Part shown: positions 2,736-38,432 of the stretch, one piece after another | Layout: each line of letters starts with the position of its first letter | Numbering within the stretch: the stretch's first letter is position 1 | NCBI GenBank assembly: GCA_048882645.1 | Contig: JBHLRJ010000003.1 | Location: 2,409-66,408, forward strand | Origin: Candidatus Thorarchaeota archaeon | GTDB lineage: Archaea > Asgardarchaeota > Lokiarchaeia > Sigyniarchaeales > SOKP01 | Reading direction: 5' to 3' | DNA length: 64,000 bases | The notes under the pieces: model-generated | Told to the model about the DNA's origin: nothing | The model's database searches: none | Seen by the model: only the letters and a program-made list of their open reading frames with translations | Program-made: the position numbers and the translations under genes

Positions 2736-3731
2736 TTATTTTTCTAGATTCAAGACTCTATTCCTTATTTTAGCTAATTTCATCATTCTTTTTATTTCCT
2801 TATCCCGAATTTTTGGCTTTAAATATTTCATTCTTTCCAGTGTTTTCTGAGCTCCTTCCTCTGCCATGTCTGCTATTATCTTTTGATCTTCCGAATCCAA
2901 CTGACTAATCATATTAAACCATCTTTCTGTAGATTCTTCAGGATCTTGAGGGATTCTTCCAGATAACAGTCCTCCATCTACTTTAAGAGTTATTCCAGTA
3001 ATAAAACTACTAGAATTACTTGCTAAAAATAAAGCCGCTTGAGCAATATCTACTGGCAAACCGGAACGCCTAATTGCTTGATCTCCAGAAATAGAATCTT
3101 TCATTAATTTACCCAGTTTTTCAGCTCCTTCACGAGATAACCCCATGCCCTGTCCAAAGATTCCAGTAGCTATAAAACCCGGTGCAATTGCATTGGCTCT
3201 AATTCCATAAGCTCCTAATTCCACAGCGGCAAGACGTGCAAGATGGATTAATCCTGCTTTCGAAATTGAATAGGCTAATCCTCCCATTCCCTGTTGAAAA
3301 CCCGCCACAGAACTTGTAAATATAAAGCATCCTGAACCTTGTTTTTTCATGATTAGTATTGAATGTTTCATAAATAAAAATGCAGCTCGAAGATGGATAG
3401 CAATTGTTTGATCAAATTCATCTGTAGGGATTTCTTCAATTACTCCTCCAGGGCCAGGATTTCCTGCATTTGAAAATACAATGTCAAGCCTTCCAAACTT
3501 TTCAACAGTTATCTCAATAACTTTTATGATGTCATTTTCCTGAGACACATCTGCATGGATATATAATGCATTTGGACCAAGTTCTTTAGCAGTTTTTTCA
3601 CCCATCTCATCCCAAATATCTACCATTACAACACCCTTAGCTCCTTCTTGAATAAAAAGTTTTGATGTTGCTCTACCTATACCGCCAGCAGCACCTGTTA
3701 TAAGTGCCACTTTCCCATCTAATTTTCCCAT
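2736..3731 (-). CDS. short-chain dehydrogenase/reductase (SDR), tandem paralogue
   Basis: TGAAGGIGRAT, NAG and YSISKAG motifs. Roughly two thirds of residues are identical to 1652-2653 by eye, including the C-terminal extension (PQDPEES.ER ... KYLKP). Confidence 0.85.
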   Translation of the reverse strand: MGKLDGKVALITGAAGGIGRATSKLFIQEGAKGVVMVDIWDEMGEKTAKELGPNALYIHADVSQENDIIKVIEITVEKFGRLDIVFSNAGNPGPGGVIEEIPTDEFDQTIAIHLRAAFLFMKHSILIMKKQGSGCFIFTSSVAGFQQGMGGLAYSISKAGLIHLARLAAVELGAYGIRANAIAPGFIATGIFGQGMGLSREGAEKLGKLMKDSISGDQAIRRSGLPVDIAQAALFLASNSSSFITGITLKVDGGLLSGRIPQDPEESTERWFNMISQLDSEDQKIIADMAEEGAQKTLERMKYLKPKIRDKEIKRMMKLAKIRNRVLNLEK

Positions 3732-3821
3732 AGTTTACAAAAAATGAATAATCAATTAATATTTTAATCATAAGACTACATTTGTTATAAGAATATTAGA
3801 TGGCATTTATTATCAAAATAT

Positions 3822-4460
3822 ATGGATTCAGAGAATAAAGATAATTCGACTAAATTAGATAAACGAGAAAAGATTCAGTTTTTTGATCTCTTTTTTGGCA
3901 TATTTAATATATTTGTAATGGTGATCATGATACTATTAACACAAAAAAATTTATTACTCATAATTTTAGCCTATAGTTTTACCGTGTTAATGTTAATTGG
4001 ATTATTTATGACTTATAAGGTACGAAATCCGTTTTATATATATTTTGTGTACGGTCCATTGCTCTGTGGTGCTTTTTATGCATTGCCCAGGCTAATATTA
4101 ATTCCATTGGAGAATTTTAGTGCTGGAATCTTCGATTATATTATTTTCATTTGTGCTATTCTAGAAATTGGATATCTTATACAAATCACTAAAAATTCAA
4201 CCTTTCTGGAAAATTTTGGACGGATCGCAAATATTGGATATTCTTGGAGGACTGGAAGAGCACAATATGACGCTACCCTTCAATATGCTATTATGGATCC
4301 AGAAGCACTGCAGAAACAGCAAGAGCAAGCTCTCGAACAGGAATTAAGAGAGAAGCGCAAAAAAAAAGATTACAACAAGAGATTTCAAAGAAATTCTATT
4401 ATTGCAATATGTGTTATCTGTGTTATTGGATTTTACATATCTTATCTAATAGGACTTTAA
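3822..4460 (+). CDS. membrane protein, unknown function
   Basis: Several hydrophobic helices, then a charged coiled-coil-like segment (QKQQEQALEQELREKRKKK) and a final TM helix. Confidence 0.5.
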   Translation: MDSENKDNSTKLDKREKIQFFDLFFGIFNIFVMVIMILLTQKNLLLIILAYSFTVLMLIGLFMTYKVRNPFYIYFVYGPLLCGAFYALPRLILIPLENFSAGIFDYIIFICAILEIGYLIQITKNSTFLENFGRIANIGYSWRTGRAQYDATLQYAIMDPEALQKQQEQALEQELREKRKKKDYNKRFQRNSIIAICVICVIGFYISYLIGL

Positions 4461-4614
4461 GAAACAATTGATATACTTAATTCGGGATTTTTTAATTTTA
4501 GCTCATTTGGCTTCCATCTCTTTAAAAATGTAAGTTTATAATTACTACCATATTACTGTATTAAATTATCAAATTTATAACCCATTACTTTTCATTTCAC
4601 AAGTTGCTAACATA

Positions 4615-4797
4615 ATGAAATATAAATTTACGATAAATTATCTAACGTTTGTAGTAAGCACCGCTCTGTATGTTTTAACGAGTTATATCGCAGCTGATTC
4701 TAAAGAAATGTTTTACTCTCTTTTAACTTTTGGATTGATGATAATAATGTTCATATTTTTATGTGTTCTTGTATTCTTTTTTGATGCTAGAAAATAA
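4615..4797 (+). CDS. small membrane protein (hypothetical)
   Basis: 60-aa ORF with two hydrophobic helices; no homology recognised. Confidence 0.3.
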   Translation: MKYKFTINYLTFVVSTALYVLTSYIAADSKEMFYSLLTFGLMIIMFIFLCVLVFFFDARK

Positions 4798-5125
4798 TGA
4801 ATGAATAATCGTTAGTGTCATCACTTTTTCCGAGTACTTCGTGCTAATTTTTTTAAAAATTTATATGATTCTGGCGTAAGTATATTCTTTTTTATCTTTT
4901 TATGATACACCTTGAACCGAGAAAGTGAGAAAGAAGTATATCATTATTTCTTGTATTCCCACCATAATCTTTATATTCTTTAATTTTCTTGTCATAATGG
5001 ATTAAATTTGGAAATCCAGTTTAATTAAATCATATCACTTTGGTAAAATATAATAGCAAAATAATTAATATAAAGCAAAAATGAATTAATAGTAAATATA
5101 CAATAATAAATCAATTTGGTGTAAA

Positions 5126-7051
5126 ATGCCCGATTTTAAAAATTGGTTCAAAAAAATCAACCTTCCAATAACCTATGATTCTACGGTTGAAGATGTGATT
5201 GAAACAAATTCTCAGCTGATAGATTTTAAAGTATTTGATGAATTTTTCCTCAGAGATGAAGGAATTACCATTAATAATTTTTTTAAGCTCCTCATTGAAG
5301 AAATTCTCAAATCGAGCCCCGACACTTTAGCATTGTTTAAAGATTTAAGTGTAATAAATCCTGAATTACTCACTAATATTAACAGAAAATGTGTTATTGC
5401 TAGCTATGACGTGGTAGATATAGAAACCGCGTTTGATGAGTTAGTCAATACAAAATTATTGGAAAAAAAAGCAGAAAGTGAATCGGAATATGAATATTTC
5501 ATTGACAGGGTTCAATTAGAGTATGCAATAATAGCAGAAAAAAAAACTCATGAAAAAGCGCTAAAATACTATGAAACTAAGAAAAAAGTACTTGGTGAGG
5601 ATAGAAATGATCTGGTTGAAGTTCTATTTCATAAGGCGGTAATTAACCCTAATGAAGAGTTAGTTTCTGAGTTTATTCAAATTATGGGTAAACTTAGCAT
5701 AATGGATTATGGATATGGAAATTTAGTCAATGTGGGGAAACTTTTACTTACTCTCGATGATAAATACAGTGCTCCAATTCAAGTTAGAATGGGAAATATT
5801 TATTCCGATTTAGGATACTTTAGAGAAGGAGAAAAGCAATATAAGGATGCTTTAGAGTCTTATAATAGGTTAGCAAAAAAATATTATAAGATCTATTTAC
5901 CTTATATTGCTGCTACTCAGAAAGCCCTTGGTAAACTTTATGTCGATCTAAAAAGATTTGAGGAAGCTGAAAAGGTTTTTCTCGAGATACTGGAGGTTTA
6001 TAAAGAATTAGAAGAAAAGTTTTATGATGTCCATTCAACTGATATTGATCCTGAAGGTGAAGTCCCCGAGGCCGACTTCCATACCAAAGCTATCGAAATC
6101 GATGATTTTGAGGATCCTGAGAGTTTATGTCAAGATGCGTTAAATGCCTACAATGAAGTAGCTCAAAAATATTATGACGTGTACTTACCTGATGTAACAA
6201 GAACCCAATCTTATTTTGGAAACATATGGTTTGATACAAAACTTTTAGAAGAAACTGGAAAGAAATCTCCTGAGTCTTTAAACTATCCCAAATTATTAGC
6301 AAAATTGAGTTATGATTCACATTTAGCTGACATTGCCACAACTCAAAATAATCTTGCGTTGATTTATCGTGAAATGGGGAGATTTGCTGAAGCAGAAAAA
6401 AGGCATCTTGAAGCCTTAAAAATTAGAAAAAAATTATTTGAGCAATACATCCAGAAAGAATCTCCAAATCTTGCTTTAACAATGATTGATCTTGGGGATC
6501 TCTATGTGATGTCATTTAGGTATGATGAGGCTGAGCCATTGTACCGAGATGCTTTACAAATCGCAAAGAATTTAGCCCTCCAAAATCCTGAGATGTATTT
6601 AGTTCCTGTGGCTAATCTTCAGAACAAAATTGGCAATGTAAATGTAAATACGCAAGATTATGAAGAAGCAGAACCTATGTATCTAGACGCCCTCGAAGTC
6701 TATAAGAAATTAGCGAAAAGATTTCCTAAAATTTATTTAGCTCATGTTGCAATAATCCAAAATAACCTTGGTAATCTGTATATACATTCAAGAGAATTAG
6801 ATAAAGCTCAAGAATACCTTAATGCCGCACTAAAGTCTGATCCTAACAATGATGATGTTTTATATAGCCATGCATGCCTTGAATCCCTTAAAAATAACAA
6901 GGAAAAAGCATTAGAATTTTTATCTAAAGCAATAGAAGTTAATAAAAAAGTAGCTGAATGGGCTCTGATGGATAATTATTTCGAAAGTATTAAGGATTTA
7001 AAAGAATTTAAGGAATTAACTGGTCAAGAGATTAAAACTACACAGGAATAA
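5126..7051 (+). CDS. TPR repeat protein (kinesin-light-chain-like TPR units) with an unknown N-terminal domain
   Basis: Repeated units of the type NLALIYREMGRFAEAEKRHLEALKIRKKL and LGNLYIHSRELDKAQEYLNAALK. Confidence 0.75.
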   Translation: MPDFKNWFKKINLPITYDSTVEDVIETNSQLIDFKVFDEFFLRDEGITINNFFKLLIEEILKSSPDTLALFKDLSVINPELLTNINRKCVIASYDVVDIETAFDELVNTKLLEKKAESESEYEYFIDRVQLEYAIIAEKKTHEKALKYYETKKKVLGEDRNDLVEVLFHKAVINPNEELVSEFIQIMGKLSIMDYGYGNLVNVGKLLLTLDDKYSAPIQVRMGNIYSDLGYFREGEKQYKDALESYNRLAKKYYKIYLPYIAATQKALGKLYVDLKRFEEAEKVFLEILEVYKELEEKFYDVHSTDIDPEGEVPEADFHTKAIEIDDFEDPESLCQDALNAYNEVAQKYYDVYLPDVTRTQSYFGNIWFDTKLLEETGKKSPESLNYPKLLAKLSYDSHLADIATTQNNLALIYREMGRFAEAEKRHLEALKIRKKLFEQYIQKESPNLALTMIDLGDLYVMSFRYDEAEPLYRDALQIAKNLALQNPEMYLVPVANLQNKIGNVNVNTQDYEEAEPMYLDALEVYKKLAKRFPKIYLAHVAIIQNNLGNLYIHSRELDKAQEYLNAALKSDPNNDDVLYSHACLESLKNNKEKALEFLSKAIEVNKKVAEWALMDNYFESIKDLKEFKELTGQEIKTTQE

Positions 7052-7091
7052 GAATAAAAAGTATATAACATTAATATTTGAGCGAAAAAAG

Positions 7092-7817
7092 ATGCAAGAT
7101 TTAAAAAAATGGTTTACGAAAGCAAAACTACTTTTGAAATTAGAAAGAAAACCTTTAACATGGGCTGGAAATTCAGATATTTTTCAATTATCAATTGCTA
7201 CAAAAGGATCGAAAAATAAACGAGAGATTTTTCGATTGTTTCCTGGAGATGAAGAAAATGAAGTGAGAGTAGTCGATGTTGATCCTGAAAAGCAACAGTT
7301 AATATTACTGGTAAATGAACCTTCCCGTGAATTTGTTACTGAAGAATGGAATTTCACAACTAAAAGGATGGAAGAGGTTAAACATAGAACTCCCGGTTTC
7401 ACCAGAAGATATTTATTAGGAATGGACGAAGCTCATTTATTCATTGCTGAGTTACCGCAAGAAGGAGCTATTAATAAAATAAAAGAGGCACATGAAATTC
7501 TCAAACCGGAATATGTAATTAAAAGTGAAAAAGAAACTAAAAGAATTAAAAGACAAGGGGAATGGTTTTTTATCCCTGTTACTACAAAAGAACAGAATTT
7601 AATCGAAGAAAATGAAAATTTCATTAAGAAAAAACAACCAATCGGGGGAGCAAATCCTCATATTGCTGATCTACTAATAAGAATTGATGATGAGATATAT
7701 GTAAAAGGAAAAGTTAAACACGTCGAACATCGAACGTTGAAATTAAATGGTTGGTTTAGAGTTCTAAGGAACACTGAAGTAACAAGTCGAACTAGAGTCC
7801 TTGGTTGGATAGATTAA
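7092..7817 (+). CDS. hypothetical protein
   Basis: 241-aa ORF lying 40 bp after the TPR gene; no family recognised. It shares the N-terminal M-x-D-x-K-x-W-F-x-K motif with 5126-7051. Confidence 0.5.
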   Translation: MQDLKKWFTKAKLLLKLERKPLTWAGNSDIFQLSIATKGSKNKREIFRLFPGDEENEVRVVDVDPEKQQLILLVNEPSREFVTEEWNFTTKRMEEVKHRTPGFTRRYLLGMDEAHLFIAELPQEGAINKIKEAHEILKPEYVIKSEKETKRIKRQGEWFFIPVTTKEQNLIEENENFIKKKQPIGGANPHIADLLIRIDDEIYVKGKVKHVEHRTLKLNGWFRVLRNTEVTSRTRVLGWID

Positions 7818-31607: not shown

Positions 31608-31979
31608 ATGCTATTTCAATTAGAAAATTTACTTTCCTATTTTCTATCATATTTACCGATAATTATCTATTTAGGATTCGATATAGCGCTGTTTATTATC
31701 GCCATCTTCATCTATAAAAGAAATTCATATAAATATGGGCTATATTTAATGATTTCTTCAATTATTTCTATCGCTTCAAGTATTCTCTTTATTTCTCTTA
31801 ATTATCCATTTCTAGTTTATGAACTGGTGAGTCGGGGGCTCTCTATGGTTGAAATCTCAATCATTCTAATGATACTCAATCTTGTCTCACTTATCCTCGG
31901 TACTACCAGTGCAGTATTCTTATTCCTCGCAGTGTATAAGATCTATCAAACTCATAAAAAGGATAGAATTAAGGATTAA
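31608..31979 (+). CDS. small membrane protein, paralogue of 36212-36601
   Basis: Four TM helices. Shares MLFQ...YLP.I.Y..FDIA..I...FI.K.NS.KYGLYL and the C-terminal YKIYQTHKK with 36212-36601. Confidence 0.5.
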   Translation: MLFQLENLLSYFLSYLPIIIYLGFDIALFIIAIFIYKRNSYKYGLYLMISSIISIASSILFISLNYPFLVYELVSRGLSMVEISIILMILNLVSLILGTTSAVFLFLAVYKIYQTHKKDRIKD

Positions 31980-31988
31980 AATTATAAT

Positions 31989-33638
31989 TTATGAAATATC
32001 TTCATTAATAGATTTTAATACTAATTTGAAAATACTTCCTTTTCCAAATTTACTGTTTACAGATAAATCTCCCCCAAGGAGATTCGCTAATTTCTTAGAG
32101 AGATGAAGTCCTAAACCACTTCCCTCTTTAGTTCTCCCTGGTTCAATAATCTGACTAAATGGTTTAAATAATTTATGTACATCCTCCTCTTTTATACCTA
32201 ACCCCGTATCTTTCACTAAAATCTCTGAAATCCCATTCTTTTGTTTTACTACAACAGAAATTTTTCCTTTCTCTGTAAATTTTATTGCATTTCCAATAAG
32301 ATTTGTTAAAATTTGATTTATACGCTGCTTATCATTGTAAATAATAAAAGGTTCAGGAGAATCTATAAGTAACTTAAGTCCTTTCCCATTTAATGCTACA
32401 CTAAACGTCTCCTTTAACCTTTTTAGTTCCTCTACGAGATCAAATTTATCTTTTCTTATAGTTAATTTTTTTGCATCTATTTTAGTTATATCAAGGATGT
32501 CATTTATCAAACCAAGCAACCTATTAGAATTATTTAATATAATATTAAGTTGGTTTTCTTGTTCTTCATTTAAAGCCCCAATTTTACCATTCAATAGCAT
32601 TCCTGTAAACCCAATGATTGAAGTTAGTGGTGTTTTTAATTCATGACTTATACTCGCTAAAAAAGTAACTTTTTGCGGTCTCGTGAACATCTCTAAAAAA
32701 TCAGTCTCGATATCATCATCAATATGCATTCCTTGAGTTACAGAAATTCTTTCAGTTCTTATTTCTCTTATTACAAGAAAAAACAGAATATATACATATA
32801 ATGTAGCTCCTATGAATTCCAGTATAAAAATAAAATTTAGTTCATTAAAGATATCAATAATTAGGATACTAAAAAGTAAGGGTATAGTTAAAATCGCAAA
32901 AAAAATCCAATATTTCAACGCACCAGAAAGAGCTTTAGGATTAATTATTATTGGCACTATGGTAAAACAACAACCTATAATTAAAACAAGTGGACTTAAG
33001 AATAATGGAAAAACATCAAGTAATTTATGAGCTCTCTTTGCTAAATTCAATGATATCATGAATAAAATAAACCCAAATAAAAGAAATGAAGATACGGCTT
33101 TAAACTCAAGATGAGACCATTTTGTATAGAAATATAATATAAGTGGAACAGAAAAAATTAAGCCGGGTAGTAATAAGTAATTAAATAAATTTCTTGTTAT
33201 ATTAAAAGGAAAAACAAACTCTATAACAATTATTAATAAGAAACTTATACTGAGAAGATATTTCGTGCGTTTTACGATGATCTCAAAAGCCAAAATAAAG
33301 ACTAATCCTCCGATTCCTAGTGAAATATAACTCAATCTGCCAAAAATTTCATATAGAAAACTTTCTCCATTATAAACACCGCAAAATGTCAAGGAATCGT
33401 AATTAAAATATCCTGAAATTTGAAAACTTTGAAATAAGGTAAATAAAAGAGCCAAAGCAAAACCTAAAGGCAAGCTTCCTAGTCCTAACATTATAATCTG
33501 TTCATTAAAAATTTCCCTTTTTTTCCCTATACGTAAAAAATATATTCCACATATTAGAGCTATCGCGATTGCAATCCCCCATAAAAATATTTCAAAGGGA
33601 TCCCAAATCATCACCACTGTGTCTCCAGGACATGCCAT
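31989..33638 (-). CDS. membrane-bound sensor histidine kinase
   Basis: About 10 N-terminal TM helices. H-box SISHELKTPLTSI, N-box LIGNAIKFT, G1 DTGLGI, G2 GSGLGL. Confidence 0.85.
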   Translation of the reverse strand: MACPGDTVVMIWDPFEIFLWGIAIAIALICGIYFLRIGKKREIFNEQIIMLGLGSLPLGFALALLFTLFQSFQISGYFNYDSLTFCGVYNGESFLYEIFGRLSYISLGIGGLVFILAFEIIVKRTKYLLSISFLLIIVIEFVFPFNITRNLFNYLLLPGLIFSVPLILYFYTKWSHLEFKAVSSFLLFGFILFMISLNLAKRAHKLLDVFPLFLSPLVLIIGCCFTIVPIIINPKALSGALKYWIFFAILTIPLLFSILIIDIFNELNFIFILEFIGATLYVYILFFLVIREIRTERISVTQGMHIDDDIETDFLEMFTRPQKVTFLASISHELKTPLTSIIGFTGMLLNGKIGALNEEQENQLNIILNNSNRLLGLINDILDITKIDAKKLTIRKDKFDLVEELKRLKETFSVALNGKGLKLLIDSPEPFIIYNDKQRINQILTNLIGNAIKFTEKGKISVVVKQKNGISEILVKDTGLGIKEEDVHKLFKPFSQIIEPGRTKEGSGLGLHLSKKLANLLGGDLSVNSKFGKGSIFKLVLKSINEDIS

Positions 33639-33744
33639 AGATTCTTCCTCTCTTTACTAAAGAGATCTCATTTTTTTTCCATATTTATGTTATATTTAAA
33701 TTTAATAAAAACATAAATATCAAAGTTATTCACGAGGGAGATAT

Positions 33745-34629
33745 ATGATACCCTTAATATTATTAGTTGAAGATGATCCAAACATCTTAAAATATCTAAA
33801 AATGACATTAGAACTTAACGAATGTAAAATTGTTAGTGCAATCAACGGTAAAGAGGGACTAAAAGTACTTTCGGAGTTAAAAAATTGCCCTGATCTCATT
33901 ATAAGTGATATTATGATGCCAGAAATGAATGGTTATGACTTTTTCAATGCTGTTTCCCGCAATCCAAACTATTATCATGTGCCATTCCTTTTTTTATCTG
34001 CTCTAGATTCCACTGAAGATATCCGATTTGGAAAAATGTTAGGAGTAGATGATTATATTACTAAACCCATAAATGAAAAAGATTTTCTAGCAGTGGTATT
34101 TGGGAAAATTAAACGTAGCAAAACTATTGACTCAATTAGTGAAAAGTTGAATGAGATTTATACATCATATGAAATTGAAAAAGCAACCATTCCTGAAAAA
34201 CTTAAAGACTTAATGATTTTAGTTGAGGTACACTGGAATGATATTGTAGGCCCACAAATAATAAGATACTTTCCCACTGATTTAGAATTAGATTTCCCAC
34301 TAAGTGCTGTTAGTGAACAACTTTACGATGGATCAATAGCCATGTATGGACAAGAACACATATTAAATGCCGAAGGACTTTTGATAAACATCAAGAACTT
34401 TAACATAATGGCATATGTGTTTTTTGATTCGTATCCAGACGATTATTATAGAGGTGGAAGAAAGAATTACATGTTTTCACTGATTTCTTCAAAAATAACA
34501 TATTTTCAGTCATTGAAAATAAAACAGATTTTTATGAACCTTTCATCAATCTTCAAAAAGTATGGGAAATGGGATATAAAAGAGTTTTGGATGAAATTTT
34601 CAGAGATTCTTGTAAAACCTTCAATTTAA
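33745..34629 (+). CDS. response regulator (REC) with a non-DNA-binding, longin/uDENN-like C-terminal domain
   Basis: REC motifs LLVEDDP, DLIISDIMMPEMNG, LSALD and DDYITKP. The C-terminal ~145 aa (34192-34629) contains VGPQIIRYFP ... YMFSLISSKITYFQSLKIKQIF, with no HTH. Confidence 0.8.
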   Translation: MIPLILLVEDDPNILKYLKMTLELNECKIVSAINGKEGLKVLSELKNCPDLIISDIMMPEMNGYDFFNAVSRNPNYYHVPFLFLSALDSTEDIRFGKMLGVDDYITKPINEKDFLAVVFGKIKRSKTIDSISEKLNEIYTSYEIEKATIPEKLKDLMILVEVHWNDIVGPQIIRYFPTDLELDFPLSAVSEQLYDGSIAMYGQEHILNAEGLLINIKNFNIMAYVFFDSYPDDYYRGGRKNYMFSLISSKITYFQSLKIKQIFMNLSSIFKKYGKWDIKEFWMKFSEILVKPSI

Positions 34630-34697
34630 ATAAAATCATTACTTCCATACAATAAATATATAGAAAATTCAAGTAGAAAAAAGAGATGAAATAATTA

Positions 34698-35249
34698 ATG
34701 GGTGCGGAAAATGAAGATTTACCTATAAAACTTGTAATTATGGGTATGGAGAATGCTGGAAAAACCACAATTTTAGATGTACTTACAGGAAAAATTAAAG
34801 AGCCACTCCGTAAACCACCAAGTATGAATCCAACTAAAAATGTTGAAAGAAGTACCATTTTATTTTTTCAGAAGGAAACGAAGGTTTGGGATTTTGGTGG
34901 ACAGGAGGTATATCGTAATGAATACATAGCACATCCTGAGAAATATTTTCACTCAATTTCGTTTTTCTATTACGTTGTCGATATCCAAGATTACTACAGA
35001 CTCTTCCCTTCCGTTATGTATTTTAAAGGAATATTTAATAAGATCAAAAACTATAGCCCTGAAGCTAAAATCATTTTCCTTTTCCATAAATCAGACCCTG
35101 ATTATGCTGCGGATGAAAGAGACTTAAAGGGACAGTTCTTAGAAAAGATTATACCTGAATTAAACTTGACAAATACACCATATATAATATATGATACTAC
35201 AATTTTTGATATAAAGAGTATAAAAATTGCCTTTGGTTTGGAATCATAG
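34698..35249 (+). CDS. Arf/Arl-like small GTPase
   Basis: G1 GMENAGKTT, G3 WDFGGQ (Arf-family hallmark), G4 HKSD. Confidence 0.75.
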   Translation: MGAENEDLPIKLVIMGMENAGKTTILDVLTGKIKEPLRKPPSMNPTKNVERSTILFFQKETKVWDFGGQEVYRNEYIAHPEKYFHSISFFYYVVDIQDYYRLFPSVMYFKGIFNKIKNYSPEAKIIFLFHKSDPDYAADERDLKGQFLEKIIPELNLTNTPYIIYDTTIFDIKSIKIAFGLES

Positions 35250-35307: not shown

Positions 35308-35976
35308 TTAATTTAAAGGAGTATTACAGTTTGGACATCTTTTTAAATCAGCGTTAATTTTATTTCCGCAATACTGGCAAAACACTACGCCTTCTTTTTC
35401 TACTCTTTTTATTGAGGTAGGTGTTCGTGGCTTTTTAATATAGTCATGCGATTTTCGTCTAGCTTTCAGTAATAGGATTATTAAACCAAAAATTAAGATC
35501 AATACTGTAGGTACTATTAGAACTAATAGATATGTACCATTAAAGAATTCAATATTTGGACCTGTCGCAGGACTTGTTATTCCTGTATTTACACCAATAT
35601 CAAAAAATCCTGAACCAGAATTAACCCCAATTTGAACATAATAATCCCTAGTTCGAGGTGCAGTAAAATGCATAGTTTCTCCAGAGTAAGACGAAACATC
35701 AACTTCTGTGCCCGTTATCATATAAGGCGTTTCACTTATTTTTATTGCCAGGTCCATATCCCAAAAAGAATCTACATTAATATAAATCGTGTATTGTTGA
35801 CCTCCCTCCAAACTTATAACATATTTTTTTGGTAATTCAAAACCCCACGCATGTTCCGCTATTTCAAGAGTATTAAGTGATAACCTTTTAGGAAACACAT
35901 ATGGCATCGTAGTTGTAAATGCCAAAGGAATCAGGGAAATAATTATTATTAATAAAATTGATTTGTACTTTTTCAT
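35308..35976 (-). CDS. secreted/membrane-anchored protein with a cytoplasmic C-terminal zinc ribbon
   Basis: N-terminal signal-like helix, beta-rich ectodomain, TM (LLVLIVPTVLILIFGLIILLL), then CQYCG-x10-CPNC. Confidence 0.55.
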   Translation of the reverse strand: MKKYKSILLIIIISLIPLAFTTTMPYVFPKRLSLNTLEIAEHAWGFELPKKYVISLEGGQQYTIYINVDSFWDMDLAIKISETPYMITGTEVDVSSYSGETMHFTAPRTRDYYVQIGVNSGSGFFDIGVNTGITSPATGPNIEFFNGTYLLVLIVPTVLILIFGLIILLLKARRKSHDYIKKPRTPTSIKRVEKEGVVFCQYCGNKINADLKRCPNCNTPLN

Positions 35977-36211: not shown

Positions 36212-36601
36212 ATGCTCTTTCAGACTTTTGATTTTTTATTGTATATTATGACATATCTCCCAGCGATAATGTATTCTAGCTTCGATATAGCCATACTCAT
36301 TTTCGGAGTCTTCATTAAAAAGAAAAATTCGTTTAAATATGGACTTTATTTAATAATCGCATCGATAGTTTCATTACTATCAACTATTATATATTATTCG
36401 ATCTACTATCCACTCTTAGTCTCTGATATAAGTAATAATCCCTTTCAGCCACCGGCTCCTCAAGATATTATGATACAATTAATTCTCTTAATCTGTAATC
36501 TCCTCTTTTTAGGTCTAGGAATTAGTAATGAAATTCTGTTGGTCCTCGCTTTTTATAAGATATATCAAACTCATAAAAAAATCAAAAAAACACGTGAATG
36601 A
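36212..36601 (+). CDS. small membrane protein, paralogue of 31608-31979
   Basis: See 31608-31979. Confidence 0.5.
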   Translation: MLFQTFDFLLYIMTYLPAIMYSSFDIAILIFGVFIKKKNSFKYGLYLIIASIVSLLSTIIYYSIYYPLLVSDISNNPFQPPAPQDIMIQLILLICNLLFLGLGISNEILLVLAFYKIYQTHKKIKKTRE

Positions 36602-37601: not shown

Positions 37602-38432
37602 TTAACACCAGTTTTTATAAATCTTTTCAATTTTCGTTGCGATATTGTTCGCAGTAATTTCACACATTCCTAATGGAACCGTGGCAGAATAAAGAAGGAT
37701 TAAGAATTCTTGGTTGACAATTTCTTTTGTAACAACCTTATCACCATTTTTTAGCACATATATCATAAGAGGAAGATCCAAATATCCTAATTGAAGTCTA
37801 ATGTCCAATTCTTTTAATGTACGTGATAATAATTTCTCTGATAATGTAGAGTATATACTAGTTCCTGTGACAGATAATAACGCCGCTCCTAAAAATTCAT
37901 CTTCATGGATTAAATCATCAAGCAAGTTTTCAACTTGTTTATAGTAGTCTTTATAACTATCGATTTCCCAATTACCTAATATAATTGAATCAATTATAGT
38001 GTCTAGTTCATCACTATGGAACACGGCCGTATCCAATGAGGTTAAATTATCTTTATAAACATTACAAAAATGTGTCATTATCATAAGTAAACTGTCTTTC
38101 AAGAAAACATTATTTTCATCAATATCTGCTATAGTAGCAAAAATGAGATTTTCCTTAATATCGTCTAAATCTTTACTAGAAATAAATACTAATTTCACAT
38201 TTGCCATCTCAAGCACTTCTATTTTTTCTGAAGTTACCTCTTCCGCAAATGAAGAAAACGCTGCGAAAAAATTAGTTACTAAATCAATATCCAATTTTTC
38301 AAATTTACTGGAAAAATTCCTATTGTAAATACAAGTACCATTCTCTTTTAGAATGAAAAAAGAATGGATTTTCCGTTTAACAATTTTTAAGATTTCATTC
38401 ACTTTTTTAAACCTACTTTTCTTGAAATTCAA
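37602..38432 (-). CDS. longin-like + roadblock/LC7-like two-domain protein (putative GTPase regulator)
   Basis: N-terminal half FFILKENGTCIYNRNF...LVTNFFAAFSSFAEEV (longin/SNARE-like pattern). C-terminal half GAALLSVTGTSIYSTL...LLYSATVPLGM (roadblock/MglB-like pattern). Motif-level only. Confidence 0.4.
   Translation of the reverse strand: MNFKKSRFKKVNEILKIVKRKIHSFFILKENGTCIYNRNFSSKFEKLDIDLVTNFFAAFSSFAEEVTSEKIEVLEMANVKLVFISSKDLDDIKENLIFATIADIDENNVFLKDSLLMIMTHFCNVYKDNLTSLDTAVFHSDELDTIIDSIILGNWEIDSYKDYYKQVENLLDDLIHEDEFLGAALLSVTGTSIYSTLSEKLLSRTLKELDIRLQLGYLDLPLMIYVLKNGDKVVTKEIVNQEFLILLYSATVPLGMCEITANNIATKIEKIYKNWC

What the first reader, a model, noticed from the sequence alone, without database searches (positions are those of the whole stretch)
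33745..35249. Response regulator whose output domain looks longin/uDENN-like, immediately upstream of the Arf-like GTPase
The REC domain is canonical (DD, D in SDIMMPEMNG, S in LSALD, K in ITKP). The C-terminal ~145 aa (34192-34629) has no HTH.

Instead it shows V.GPQIIRYFP ... AEGLLINIKNFNIMAYVFF ... YMFSLISSKITYFQSLKIKQIF. This recalls longin/uDENN modules, which act as GEF or platform domains for small GTPases in eukaryotes. The downstream GTPase has Arf hallmarks (AGKTT, WDFGGQ).
Basis: partly seen in the sequence, partly recalled or inferred. Interest (0 to 1): 0.6.

Follow-up and report, generated by a model that had tools for sequence, protein, structure and literature searches.

The report
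Receiver-longin regulator beside Rag-like GTPase
An Asgard archaeon joins a bacterial-style phosphorylation receiver to a longin domain of the kind that switches off Rag and Arf GTPases in eukaryotes, and this gene sits in a conserved cassette with its sensor kinase and a Rag-like GTPase, so the regulator and its likely target can be tested together.

Summary
ORF 33745-34629 is a canonical response regulator (D10/D11, D55, S85, K107). Its C-terminal ~135 aa match no Pfam, NCBIfam or PDB sequence.

AlphaFold2 folds that part as beta-beta-alpha-beta-beta-beta-alpha-alpha (pLDDT 83). Foldseek's best PDB hits are all longin domains: FNIP2/FLCN, NPRL2/Npr2, DENND10, Lst4, C9orf72-SMCR8 and a Lokiarchaeal longin.

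The family keeps an invariant W-D-x-x-x-G-P loop, spaced as in C9orf72, and an invariant Arg in the beta4-beta5 loop.

The neighbouring GTPase is closer to Rag/Gtr than to Arf.

Histidine kinase, receiver-longin and GTPase recur together: 32 of 43 loci, and all three paralogous copies in this genome. The domain is also fused directly to Ras-like and Arf-like GTPases.

The receiver-longin fusion was briefly reported (Liu et al., bioRxiv 2020). I did not find the conserved GTPase cassette or the motif reading in the papers searched. This scan has noted the same cassette in at least 13 other genomes.

Biochemistry is untested. Verdict: a well-supported new member of a known, uncharacterised class.

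The parts
31989..33638 (-). Membrane histidine kinase, 549 aa. About 9-10 hydrophobic segments lie in residues 17-290, followed by HisKA (H-box SHELKTP at residue 331) and HATPase_c. It is divergently transcribed from the regulator and is its likely cognate kinase.
   Evidence: Pfam HisKA 73.9 bits and HATPase_c 83.7 bits. Hydropathy scan. An orthologous kinase lies in the same divergent position in 13 of the related loci.
33639..33744 (.). 106-bp A+T-rich divergent intergenic region between the kinase and regulator genes. It presumably holds both promoters.
   Evidence: Sequence read. Promoter function was not tested.
33745..34629 (+). Response regulator with a longin output domain, 294 aa plus stop.
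33745..34104 (+). Receiver (REC) domain, residues 1-120. Acidic pair D10/D11 (33772-33777), phospho-acceptor D55 (33907-33909), S85 (33997-33999), K107 (34063-34065).
   Evidence: Pfam PF00072 81.2 bits. Residues checked. The AF2 model gives a (beta-alpha)5 fold with pLDDT about 90.
34075..34212 (+). Inter-domain connector. Receiver helix alpha5 extends to about residue 141 (helix 111-141), then a low-confidence flexible stretch runs to residue 156.
   Evidence: AF2 full-length model: H111-141, pLDDT below 50 for residues 137-154, pTM 0.48. No fixed arrangement of the two domains is predicted in the monomer.
34213..34614 (+). Longin domain, residues 157-290. Strands 157-165, 169-176, 210-216, 221-231 and 239-248. 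Helices 186-201, 253-273 and 278-290.
   Evidence: AF2 domain model: pLDDT 83.2, pTM 0.79. Foldseek PDB top hits are all longin domains, E from 9e-5, TM about 0.5.
34234..34254 (+). W164-N165-D166-I-V-G169-P170. This is the beta1-beta2 loop 'WD + GP' motif. W, G and P are invariant in the family; the family consensus is WDDxxGP.
   Evidence: Alignments A1-A4. The spacing equals C9orf72 W33-D34...G38-P39 (sequence confirmed, aligned). The motif is defined in PMC12290439.
34450..34452 (+). R236, an invariant arginine in the beta4-beta5 loop (YRGG). Candidate arginine finger.
   Evidence: Invariant in alignments A2, A3 and A4. Kept in the other architectures read: P0111, P0075, P0190, P0011, P0034. 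It sits in the same loop as I place NPRL2 R78 (sequence). That equivalence is inferred, not superposed.
34698..35249 (+). Stand-alone small GTPase, 183 aa, Rag/Gtr-like with an Arf-like P-loop. G1 GMENAGKTT (34743-34769), T46, G3 WDFGGQ (34887-34904), G4 HKSD (35085-35096), G5 TTIFD (35196-35210). No C-terminal roadblock domain.
   Evidence: Pfam Gtr1_RagA 66.3 bits, Arf 55.1 bits. PDB sequence search: 8zla_A 4e-29, 8yl2_A 1e-23, Gtr1/RagA about 3e-11, Arf3p 4e-8. An orthologue lies next to the regulator in almost all orthologous loci.

Best explanation
The gene encodes an Asgard-archaeal two-component response regulator. Its output is not a DNA-binding domain but a longin domain of the folliculin / NPRL2 / C9orf72-SMCR8 class. 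Together with the divergently encoded membrane histidine kinase and the Rag/Gtr-like small GTPase gene 68 nt downstream, it forms a conserved three-gene signalling cassette.

Proposed mechanism:
1. The kinase senses a membrane-associated signal and phosphorylates D55.
2. Phosphorylation makes the receiver domains dimerise. The long alpha5 helix and the flexible connector then bring two longin domains together into a dimeric platform, of the kind seen in eukaryotic longin-domain GAP complexes.
3. The platform binds the neighbouring GTPase.
4. The surface formed by the invariant WDxxxGP loop and the invariant R236 loop stimulates GTP hydrolysis. The regulator would thus be a phosphorylation-gated GAP.

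Shown here: the domain make-up, the longin fold (as a prediction), the motifs, the gene linkage and the GTPase-longin fusions.

Inferred: that the neighbouring GTPase is the target (I put this at about 0.75); that the activity is GAP rather than GEF or effector (about 0.45 of the total); that control works through dimerisation (speculative).
For: Receiver domain: canonical, with all phospho-chemistry residues.

Longin fold: the domain model has pLDDT 83 and pTM 0.79 with bb-a-bbb-aa topology (same). All Foldseek PDB hits with E <= 1e-3 are longin domains of GTPase regulators. They include chains of the FLCN-FNIP2 entries, chains of the GATOR1 entries, yeast Npr2 (8adl_S) and a Lokiarchaeal longin (8yqg) (identity of 8adl_S).

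Motifs: W164, G169, P170 and R236 are invariant across 25-41 sequences down to 34% identity. They are kept in the non-receiver architectures read. The GP motif at the start of beta2 and an arginine finger next to it are reported as specific to GAP-type longins and shared with some Asgard longins (PMC12290439). hhalign puts the family's WD and GP on C9orf72 W33-D34 and G38-P39 over 113 columns.

Gene linkage: 32 of 43 receiver-longin loci have a small GTPase in the cassette. All three copies in this genome are linked to a kinase and a GTPase, in two different gene orders. Only the kinase, regulator and GTPase are conserved neighbours. Longin and GTPase divergence matrices correlate, r = 0.89, Mantel 0 of 2000 permutations, and also within each paralogue group.

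Fusions: the same longin domain is fused to Ras-like GTPases (P0011-14, P0034) and to an Arf-like GTPase (P0111).

Full-length model: no fixed receiver-longin packing (pTM 0.48, flexible residues 137-154). This fits control by proximity or dimerisation.
Against: There is no biochemical evidence at all.

The link to eukaryotic GAP longins rests on fold and short motifs only. Pfam NPR2 and Folliculin models do not detect the domain. hhalign probabilities are low: 2% for NPRL2 and 18.6% for C9orf72.

Foldseek TM-scores are only about 0.5. The hit list also holds non-catalytic (FNIP2) and GEF-type (DENND1B, DENND10) longins, so the fold search cannot separate GAP from GEF.

The equivalence of R236 with NPRL2 R78 comes from loop position, not from a superposition. 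In the C9orf72 alignment R236 pairs with a non-Arg residue.

Eleven of 43 loci show no GTPase within the DNA held. The domain also follows sensor domains with no GTPase attached (RsbRD_N, DUF1638, kinase-receiver hybrids), so it may have more general uses.

The longin-GTPase distance correlation partly reflects shared species history.

Eukaryotic GAP longins work as heterodimers with DENN or other extra domains, which this protein lacks.
Confidence: 0.5

Rival explanations
1. One reading: the longin domain is a GEF or a passive platform, like DENND1B-Rab35, Mon1-Ccz1, the TRAPP longins or Ragulator. It would load or position the neighbouring GTPase, and receiver phosphorylation would switch this on.
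For: Most eukaryotic longin and roadblock regulators are GEFs or platforms (statement in PMC13408092). DENND10 and DENND1B are among the Foldseek hits. The synteny and fusion evidence fits any direct regulator.
Against: The GP motif is reported absent from DENND, TRAPP and adaptin longins and from the non-catalytic subunits FNIP2 and NPRL3 (PMC12290439). Here it is invariant, together with an invariant Arg in the adjacent loop.
Confidence: 0.2
2. The longin domain is an effector or adaptor module and not an enzyme-like regulator. Either the GTP-bound GTPase binds it to localise or gate the phosphorelay, or the regulator recruits the GTPase to a site. This would resemble RomR-RomX with MglA in Myxococcus, recently re-read as an effector complex.
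For: The bacterial precedent has a receiver-domain protein working with a small GTPase, and its GEF role has been re-interpreted as effector binding (PMC13408092). The domain occurs behind several kinds of sensor or signalling modules. AF2 predicts no rigid receiver-longin coupling.
Against: This view does not explain why W, GP and Arg, the residues at the catalytic pocket of GAP longins, are the invariant ones.
Confidence: 0.2
3. The C-terminal domain is a general dimerisation or ligand-binding output module (PAS- or profilin-like use of a similar fold). It would have no direct tie to the GTPase, and the adjacency would be historical.
For: PAS/LOV domains appear lower in the Foldseek list, at E 0.02-0.1 and TM about 0.3. 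Eleven of 43 loci show no GTPase in the DNA held.
Against: Linkage recurs in two gene orders and in all three paralogues of this genome. There are fusions to two different classes of GTPase. The divergence of longin and GTPase co-varies. The topology is longin, not PAS.
Confidence: 0.07

Closest known systems
Asgard 'NPRL2-like longin' domains fused to two-component signalling domains (Liu et al., bioRxiv 10.1101/2020.10.19.343400, Fig. 5c; published in Nature 2021)
   Same: The same kind of protein: a longin domain likened to NPRL2, joined to receiver or kinase modules in Asgard archaea. The architectures I found match that description: REC-X, PAS-HisKA-HATPase-REC-X and HATPase-X.
   Different: The text gives one sentence and proposes a role in growth or starvation control. 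In the text I could read it reports no conserved kinase-regulator-GTPase cassette, no WDxxxGP/Arg motif analysis and no GTPase partner. I could not see Fig. 5c, so I cannot confirm that this exact family is drawn there.
Eukaryotic longin-domain GAP complexes: GATOR1 (NPRL2-NPRL3-DEPDC5) for RagA/B, FLCN-FNIP for RagC/D, C9orf72-SMCR8-WDR41 for Arf (and Rab)
   Same: Longin fold. GP motif at the beta1-beta2 turn. A WD motif with the C9orf72 spacing. A conserved Arg in the neighbouring loop. A partner GTPase of Rag/Arf type.
   Different: No sequence-profile membership. A single longin domain with no DENN or other C-terminal domains. Probably a homodimer rather than a heterodimer. Controlled by His-Asp phosphorelay rather than by amino-acid sensors. 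GAP activity is untested.
Asgard GP-motif longins described as FLCN/SMCR8-type (Traffic 2025, PMC12290439)
   Same: [quoted passage not shown] That paper asks whether Asgard ArfR or Rag/Gtr GTPases are their partners.
   Different: That paper does not mention receiver fusions or gene neighbourhoods: 'response regulator', 'receiver' and 'CheY' occur 0 times. The present cassette supplies a specific candidate partner.
RomR-RomX / MglA-MglB polarity module of Myxococcus xanthus
   Same: A receiver-domain protein working directly with a small Ras-superfamily GTPase, and a roadblock-superfamily regulator, in a prokaryote.
   Different: RomR's receiver is not fused to a longin domain. MglB is a roadblock-fold protein, not a longin, and is a separate protein. 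The GTPase is MglA-type, not Rag/Arf-type. The systems are bacterial and not homologous as systems.
REC-NitrOD3 response regulators of Thaumarchaeota (Galperin et al. 2018, PMC5847659)
   Same: Archaeal response regulators whose output domain is related to the Roadblock/LC7 superfamily.
   Different: NitrOD3 is roadblock-like and found in Thaumarchaeota. That census reports no longin topology, GP/Arg motif or GTPase linkage.

Membership tests
Response regulator receiver domain (REC, PF00072) | Profile match above the curated cut-off | tested here: met
   81.2 bits against a cut-off of 30.2, residues 5-118.
Response regulator receiver domain (REC, PF00072) | Acidic pocket, phospho-acceptor Asp, conserved Ser/Thr and Lys | tested here: met
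   D10/D11, D55, S85 and K107 are present. D55 is at least 90% conserved and P108 is invariant in 41 homologues.
Response regulator receiver domain (REC, PF00072) | Cognate histidine kinase | tested here: met
   A HisKA + HATPase_c kinase is encoded 106 bp upstream, divergently. A kinase is adjacent in most related loci. Phosphotransfer itself cannot be tested here.
Longin fold | beta-beta-alpha-beta-beta-beta-alpha-alpha topology, with no N-terminal helix as in roadblock | tested here: met
   DSSP of two AF2 models. This is a prediction, pLDDT 83.
Longin fold | Structural similarity to solved longin domains | tested here: met
   All 7 Foldseek hits with E <= 1e-3 are longin domains. TMq is 0.45-0.58, which is only moderate.
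Longin fold | Sequence-profile match to a curated longin family | tested here: not met
   No Pfam or NCBIfam hit for the domain, alone or for 14 members. No PDB sequence hit with a profile.
GAP-type longins (FLCN, NPRL2, SMCR8, C9orf72) | GP motif at the end of the beta1-beta2 loop or the start of beta2 | tested here: met
   G169-P170 are invariant and lie at the start of strand 169-176. The definition is from PMC12290439. NPRL2 G20-P21 and C9orf72 G38-P39 were confirmed in PDB sequences and aligned.
GAP-type longins (FLCN, NPRL2, SMCR8, C9orf72) | WD motif five residues before the GP (C9orf72 W33-D34) | tested here: met
   W164 is invariant. The next residue is D in most members and N in this protein. 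The spacing is the same.
GAP-type longins (FLCN, NPRL2, SMCR8, C9orf72) | Arginine finger beside the GP motif (NPRL2 R78, FLCN R164, SMCR8 R147) | tested here: inconclusive
   R236 is invariant and lies in the beta4-beta5 loop, the same loop in which I place NPRL2 R78. No structural superposition was possible. hhalign does not pair it with an Arg.
GAP-type longins (FLCN, NPRL2, SMCR8, C9orf72) | Profile-level homology to NPR2, Folliculin or C9orf72 families | tested here: not met
   Pfam NPR2 and Folliculin do not hit the domain in this genome. hhalign probability is 2% (NPRL2) and 18.6% (C9orf72), against single sequences.
GAP-type longins (FLCN, NPRL2, SMCR8, C9orf72) | Longin followed by DENN or other C-terminal domains, and heterodimeric assembly | tested here: not met
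   The protein ends 4 residues after the longin domain. Oligomeric state cannot be tested here.
GAP-type longins (FLCN, NPRL2, SMCR8, C9orf72) | GAP activity toward a Rag or Arf GTPase | not testable with these tools
   Needs biochemistry.
Rag/Gtr GTPases | G-domain profile match and Rag-type G4/G5 motifs | tested here: met
   Gtr1_RagA 66.3 bits against a cut-off of 22. Gtr1/RagA are the best named PDB hits, about 3e-11. HKSD and TTIFD are present. Their likeness to Rag HKxD and TSIWD is from my own knowledge.
Rag/Gtr GTPases | C-terminal roadblock domain that mediates dimerisation | tested here: not met
   The protein is 183 aa, a G domain only.
Arf family GTPases | Profile match; N-terminal amphipathic helix | tested here: inconclusive
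   Arf 55.1 bits against a cut-off of 22.3, lower than Gtr1_RagA. The P-loop GMENAGKTT is Arf-like. Only about 10 acidic residues precede strand 1 (MGAENEDLPIK), so an Arf-type amphipathic helix is unlikely. No tree was made against the ArfR, ArfL and RagGtr groups.

The most novel reading that the evidence does not exclude
The cassette is a minimal, single-gene ancestor-like version of the eukaryotic longin GAP complexes. A homodimeric longin GAP would form its active site (WDxxxGP plus R236) only when His-Asp phosphorylation dimerises the receiver domains. This would put a Rag-like GTPase directly under a membrane sensor kinase. Rag/Arf off-switching by longin domains would then predate eukaryotes and would first have been wired to two-component signalling rather than to TOR-type amino-acid sensing.
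Probability: 0.3. Interest if true: 0.8.

Novelty: new member of a known kind. Interest (0 to 1): 0.55.

Why it matters
Asgard genomes hold dozens of small GTPases and longin or roadblock proteins, but almost none can be paired with a partner. Tran et al. 2024 note that GTPase genes are generally not in operons with roadblock or longin genes.

This cassette offers a specific trio that can be expressed: a sensor kinase, a receiver-longin regulator and a Rag-like GTPase. It also names the residues to mutate.

If the longin domain proves to be a phosphorylation-gated GAP, the catalytic principle of GATOR1, folliculin and C9orf72-SMCR8 would be shown to exist in archaea. That would also show how eukaryote-type GTPase switches were first connected to prokaryotic signalling.

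If it proves to be a GEF or an effector, it still gives one of the few regulator-GTPase pairs from Asgard archaea that could be characterised.

Tried and rejected
- Sequence searches of the output domain found nothing beyond chance: Pfam, NCBIfam, and PDB by phmmer and by profile.
- Pfam NPR2 and Folliculin models run over the whole genome did not hit the domain. Folliculin gave only a sub-threshold hit in an unrelated 506-aa ORF.
- hhalign of the family profile against single NPRL2 and C9orf72 sequences placed the motifs in register but gave low probabilities.
- A homologue search with NPRL2, meant to build a diverse eukaryotic profile, listed only near-identical vertebrate proteins and was not useful.
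- A search for papers citing PDB entries 8yqg, 8zla, 8yl2 and 9m28 found nothing relevant.
- The published Liu et al. paper (PMC11165668) is not held.
- I looked for heptad phasing of the receiver-longin connector. Lengths peak at 50 and 57 residues, but 55-59 are also common, so there is no clean coiled-coil signal.
- I tested whether other neighbours belong to the unit: the longin/roadblock-like 276-aa ORF, the two small membrane-protein paralogues, the Zn-ribbon protein and the ACT protein. None recurs in the related loci.
- The fused GTPases are not close relatives of the neighbouring GTPase.
- One genome search failed and was repeated with fewer genomes.
The two genes are in different frames, so no read-through chain could stand in for one.
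Full report
SETTING

The window has about 30% G+C. Its close protein relatives all come from Asgard archaea; source names include Promethearchaeota, Hermod-, Hod-, Thor-, Hel-, Odin- and Heimdallarchaeota. The window is contig C3 of a 3.79-Mb assembly with 168 contigs, 88% complete.

OBSERVATION

ORF 33745-34629 (+) encodes 294 aa.

Residues 5-118 match Pfam Response_reg at 81.2 bits against a cut-off of 30.2. D10/D11, the phospho-acceptor D55, S85 and K107 are all present.

The C-terminal part has no HTH. It has no match in Pfam or NCBIfam, and none in PDB sequences, whether searched alone, as 14 separate members or as a profile.

It is nonetheless a real, strongly conserved domain. Sixty-seven proteins share it at 50-96% identity. 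A profile finds 271 clusters at 50% identity among 1.84 billion representatives.

The 183-aa GTPase ORF 34698-35249 follows after 68 nt. A 549-aa membrane histidine kinase (31989-33638, minus strand; HisKA + HATPase_c; about 9-10 hydrophobic segments) lies 106 bp upstream, divergently.

FOLD

AlphaFold2 on the domain with 33 aligned sequences gives pLDDT 83.2 and pTM 0.79. The order of elements is beta-beta-alpha-beta-beta-beta-alpha-alpha, which is the longin order. Roadblock would begin with a helix. The full-length model reproduces this order.

All seven Foldseek PDB matches with E <= 1e-3 are longin domains of GTPase regulators:
- a chain of the FLCN-FNIP2-Rag-Ragulator entry (6ulg_N);
- chains of GATOR1 entries whose lengths fit NPRL2 (my inference from length);
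- DENND10;
- yeast Npr2 (8adl_S, named);
- the longin domain of a Lokiarchaeal Roadblock-Longin protein (8yqg).

Further chains of FLCN-FNIP2 entries, Lst4, DENND1B, C9orf72-SMCR8 and Sec22b follow lower down.

TM-scores are about 0.45-0.58. This is same-fold similarity, not close similarity. PAS/LOV domains appear only at E >= 0.016 with TM about 0.3.

MOTIFS

Across 25 domain sequences down to 34% identity, and across 41 full-length sequences, the invariant residues include W164, G169, P170, P177 and R236.

W164-[D/N]-D-x-x-G169-P170 lies in the beta1-beta2 turn and the start of beta2. R236 (YRGG) lies in the beta4-beta5 loop. In a longin sheet of strand order 2-1-5-4-3, these two hairpin loops sit at the same edge and next to each other. 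This last point is my inference from topology.

A 2025 survey (PMC12290439) reports three things:
- A GP motif at exactly this position is shared by FLCN, NPRL2, SMCR8 and C9orf72. It is absent from FNIP2, NPRL3, DENND, TRAPP and adaptin longins.
- The GP motif neighbours the arginine finger.
- C9orf72 has an essential W33-D34 just before its G38-P39.

I confirmed the human NPRL2 and C9orf72 N-terminal sequences against PDB chains. C9orf72 reads YWDNILGP. The window protein reads HWNDIVGP, and the family consensus is WDDxxGP. The spacing is the same.

hhalign places these in register over 113 columns with C9orf72, but at only 18.6% probability. With NPRL2 it aligns only the region around the GP, at 2% probability.

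NPRL2 R78 (KKYSR) falls, by my reading of its sequence, in the loop before the fifth strand, as R236 does here. This was not superposed.

The motifs therefore point to the GAP-type subclass. Homology at profile level is not shown; Pfam NPR2 and Folliculin do not detect the domain.

THE GTPASE

Pfam ranks Gtr1_RagA (66.3 bits) above Arf (55.1 bits).

By sequence, the nearest solved structures are two unnamed 'GTP-binding proteins', 8zla_A at 4e-29 and 8yl2_A at 1e-23. Gtr1 and RagA follow at about 3e-11, then Arf3p at 4e-8 and the Arl proteins.

G4 is HKSD and G5 is TTIFD, both Rag-like by my knowledge. The P-loop GMENAGKTT is Arf/Sar-like. There is no C-terminal roadblock domain and no long amphipathic N-terminus.

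This fits the remark of Tran et al. [quoted passage not shown] 'Arf-like' is therefore only partly right.

GENE LINKAGE

I took 43 loci from one genome per species plus this genome's own copies.

In the orthologous group (52-81% identity in the longin domain), the GTPase gene lies directly downstream of the regulator in 24 of 25 loci. Two of these have it inverted. The multi-pass kinase lies divergently upstream wherever upstream DNA is held in about half of them.

In the paralogous groups (34-45% identity) the order is instead GTPase - kinase - regulator, all co-directional. Both extra copies in this genome have this order: L050 has GTPase 3173-3721, kinase 3801-6335 and regulator 6401-7330; L051 is the mirror image.

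Overall 32 of 43 loci show a GTPase in the cassette. Several of the rest end at a contig edge.

Nothing else in the window's neighbourhood recurs in these loci.

Pairwise divergence of longin domains and of the linked GTPases correlates: r = 0.89, Mantel 0 of 2000 permutations, r = 0.61 and 0.93 within the two groups. This is partly shared species history. It still shows that the paralogous cassettes carry distinct, matched GTPase lineages.

FUSIONS

The same domain, with W, GP and Arg kept in the sequences I read, occurs in several architectures:
- after Ras-like GTPases (P0011-14, P0034);
- after an Arf-like GTPase (P0111, Arf 98.8 bits);
- after kinase-receiver hybrids;
- after a bare HATPase domain;
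- after RsbRD_N;
- after DUF1638.

The fused GTPases are not close relatives of the neighbouring one. The domain has thus been joined to, or placed beside, three kinds of small GTPase.

DISTRIBUTION

The domain was found in 50 of 201 sampled genomes of the phylum. It is concentrated in the window's own family (34 of 40) and in one other family (10 of 10). It was not found in most other families sampled.

MECHANISM

The full-length model shows a canonical receiver whose alpha5 runs on to residue 141. A flexible segment follows (pLDDT below 50 for residues 137-154), then the longin domain. The pTM of 0.48 means no fixed packing of the two domains in the monomer.

I therefore favour control by phosphorylation-driven receiver dimerisation, which would pair two longin domains. 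Eukaryotic GAP longins and the solved Lokiarchaeal longin (8yqg, 'dimeric structure') are dimers. The paired domains would form a platform whose WDxxxGP/R236 surface engages the GTPase and most probably supplies an arginine finger.

My odds:
- some direct action on the linked GTPase: about 0.75;
- within the total: GAP about 0.45, GEF or platform about 0.2, effector or adaptor about 0.2, unrelated function below 0.1.

All steps after 'domain, motifs, linkage' are inference.

WHAT IS KNOWN

Liu et al. [quoted passage not shown] The architecture class is therefore published.

Other papers read:
- Galperin et al. 2018 list a Roadblock-related receiver output (NitrOD3) in Thaumarchaeota, but nothing of this kind for Asgard.
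- Tran et al. 2024 describe GTPase-longin and GTPase-roadblock fusions. They say GTPase genes are generally not in operons with such genes.
- The 2025 Traffic paper describes GP-motif Asgard longins and asks which GTPases they serve. It does not mention receiver fusions.
- Further searches found no paper that describes the kinase-regulator-GTPase cassette.

The held library is incomplete, so this absence is not proof.

EARLIER NOTES OF THIS SCAN

Earlier notes describe the same kind of cassette in at least 13 other genomes and reach similar readings. I reached mine before reading them. They are not independent evidence.

VERDICT

The longin reading is supported. The 'GEF/platform' and 'Arf-like' details are better replaced by 'GAP-type longin' and 'Rag/Gtr-like'. 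This is a well-supported new member of a briefly reported, biochemically untouched class, with a concrete and testable regulator-GTPase pairing.

Noticed in passing
window 37602-38432 (-): A 276-aa ORF with only a faint NCBIfam MglB (roadblock) hit at residues 235-274 (E 0.033) and no Pfam family. It may be a longin/roadblock tandem. It does not recur next to the cassette in any of the 43 related loci.
   Followed up: partly
window 31608-31979 (+) and 36212-36601 (+): Two paralogous small membrane proteins (123 and 129 aa, both ending ...YKIYQTHKK) bracket the kinase-regulator-GTPase unit. Neither recurs in the related loci.
   Followed up: partly
L002:6001-7251 / L013:4188-5438 (P0034), and P0011-P0014: The Ras-like GTPase-longin fusions keep the same pre-longin connector (INEIYSSYEIE..IPE..KD) as the response regulators, and are 70-73% identical to the window's longin domain. 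They look like a recent swap of the receiver for a GTPase. No separate GTPase gene follows them.
   Followed up: partly
L014:4602-5195 (-) and L028:1127-1699 (-): In two genomes the orthologous GTPase gene is inverted. It converges on the regulator gene and overlaps it by 16 nt.
   Followed up: no
G000:C42, L056:472-1587 (-): A 371-aa ORF begins MPIGLVVMRWDDRAGTEVLAKYPE. This is a WDD motif in a longin-like N-terminus, but with AG in place of GP. It is a weak profile hit (E 0.065) and is possibly a more distant longin paralogue.
   Followed up: no
genomes of family f22 and f1 (for example G130:C9:190440-190841, G109:C98:11547-11792): More distant copies of the domain lie inside open frames of about 645-650 aa (E 1e-11 to 1e-15) and about 1130-1148 aa (E about 1e-8). 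These architectures were not examined.
   Followed up: no
G000:C68:6069-6248 (+), L052: A sub-threshold Pfam Folliculin match (18.1 bits, E 0.004; cut-off 23.3) inside a 506-aa open frame of the same genome. The control genomes also give such weak hits, so it may be noise.
   Followed up: no
window 35308-35976 (-): A 222-aa protein with an N-terminal signal anchor, a second TM segment and a C-terminal zinc ribbon (weak Pfam Zn_Ribbon_1/DZR hits). It converges on the GTPase gene and is not conserved in related loci.
   Followed up: no
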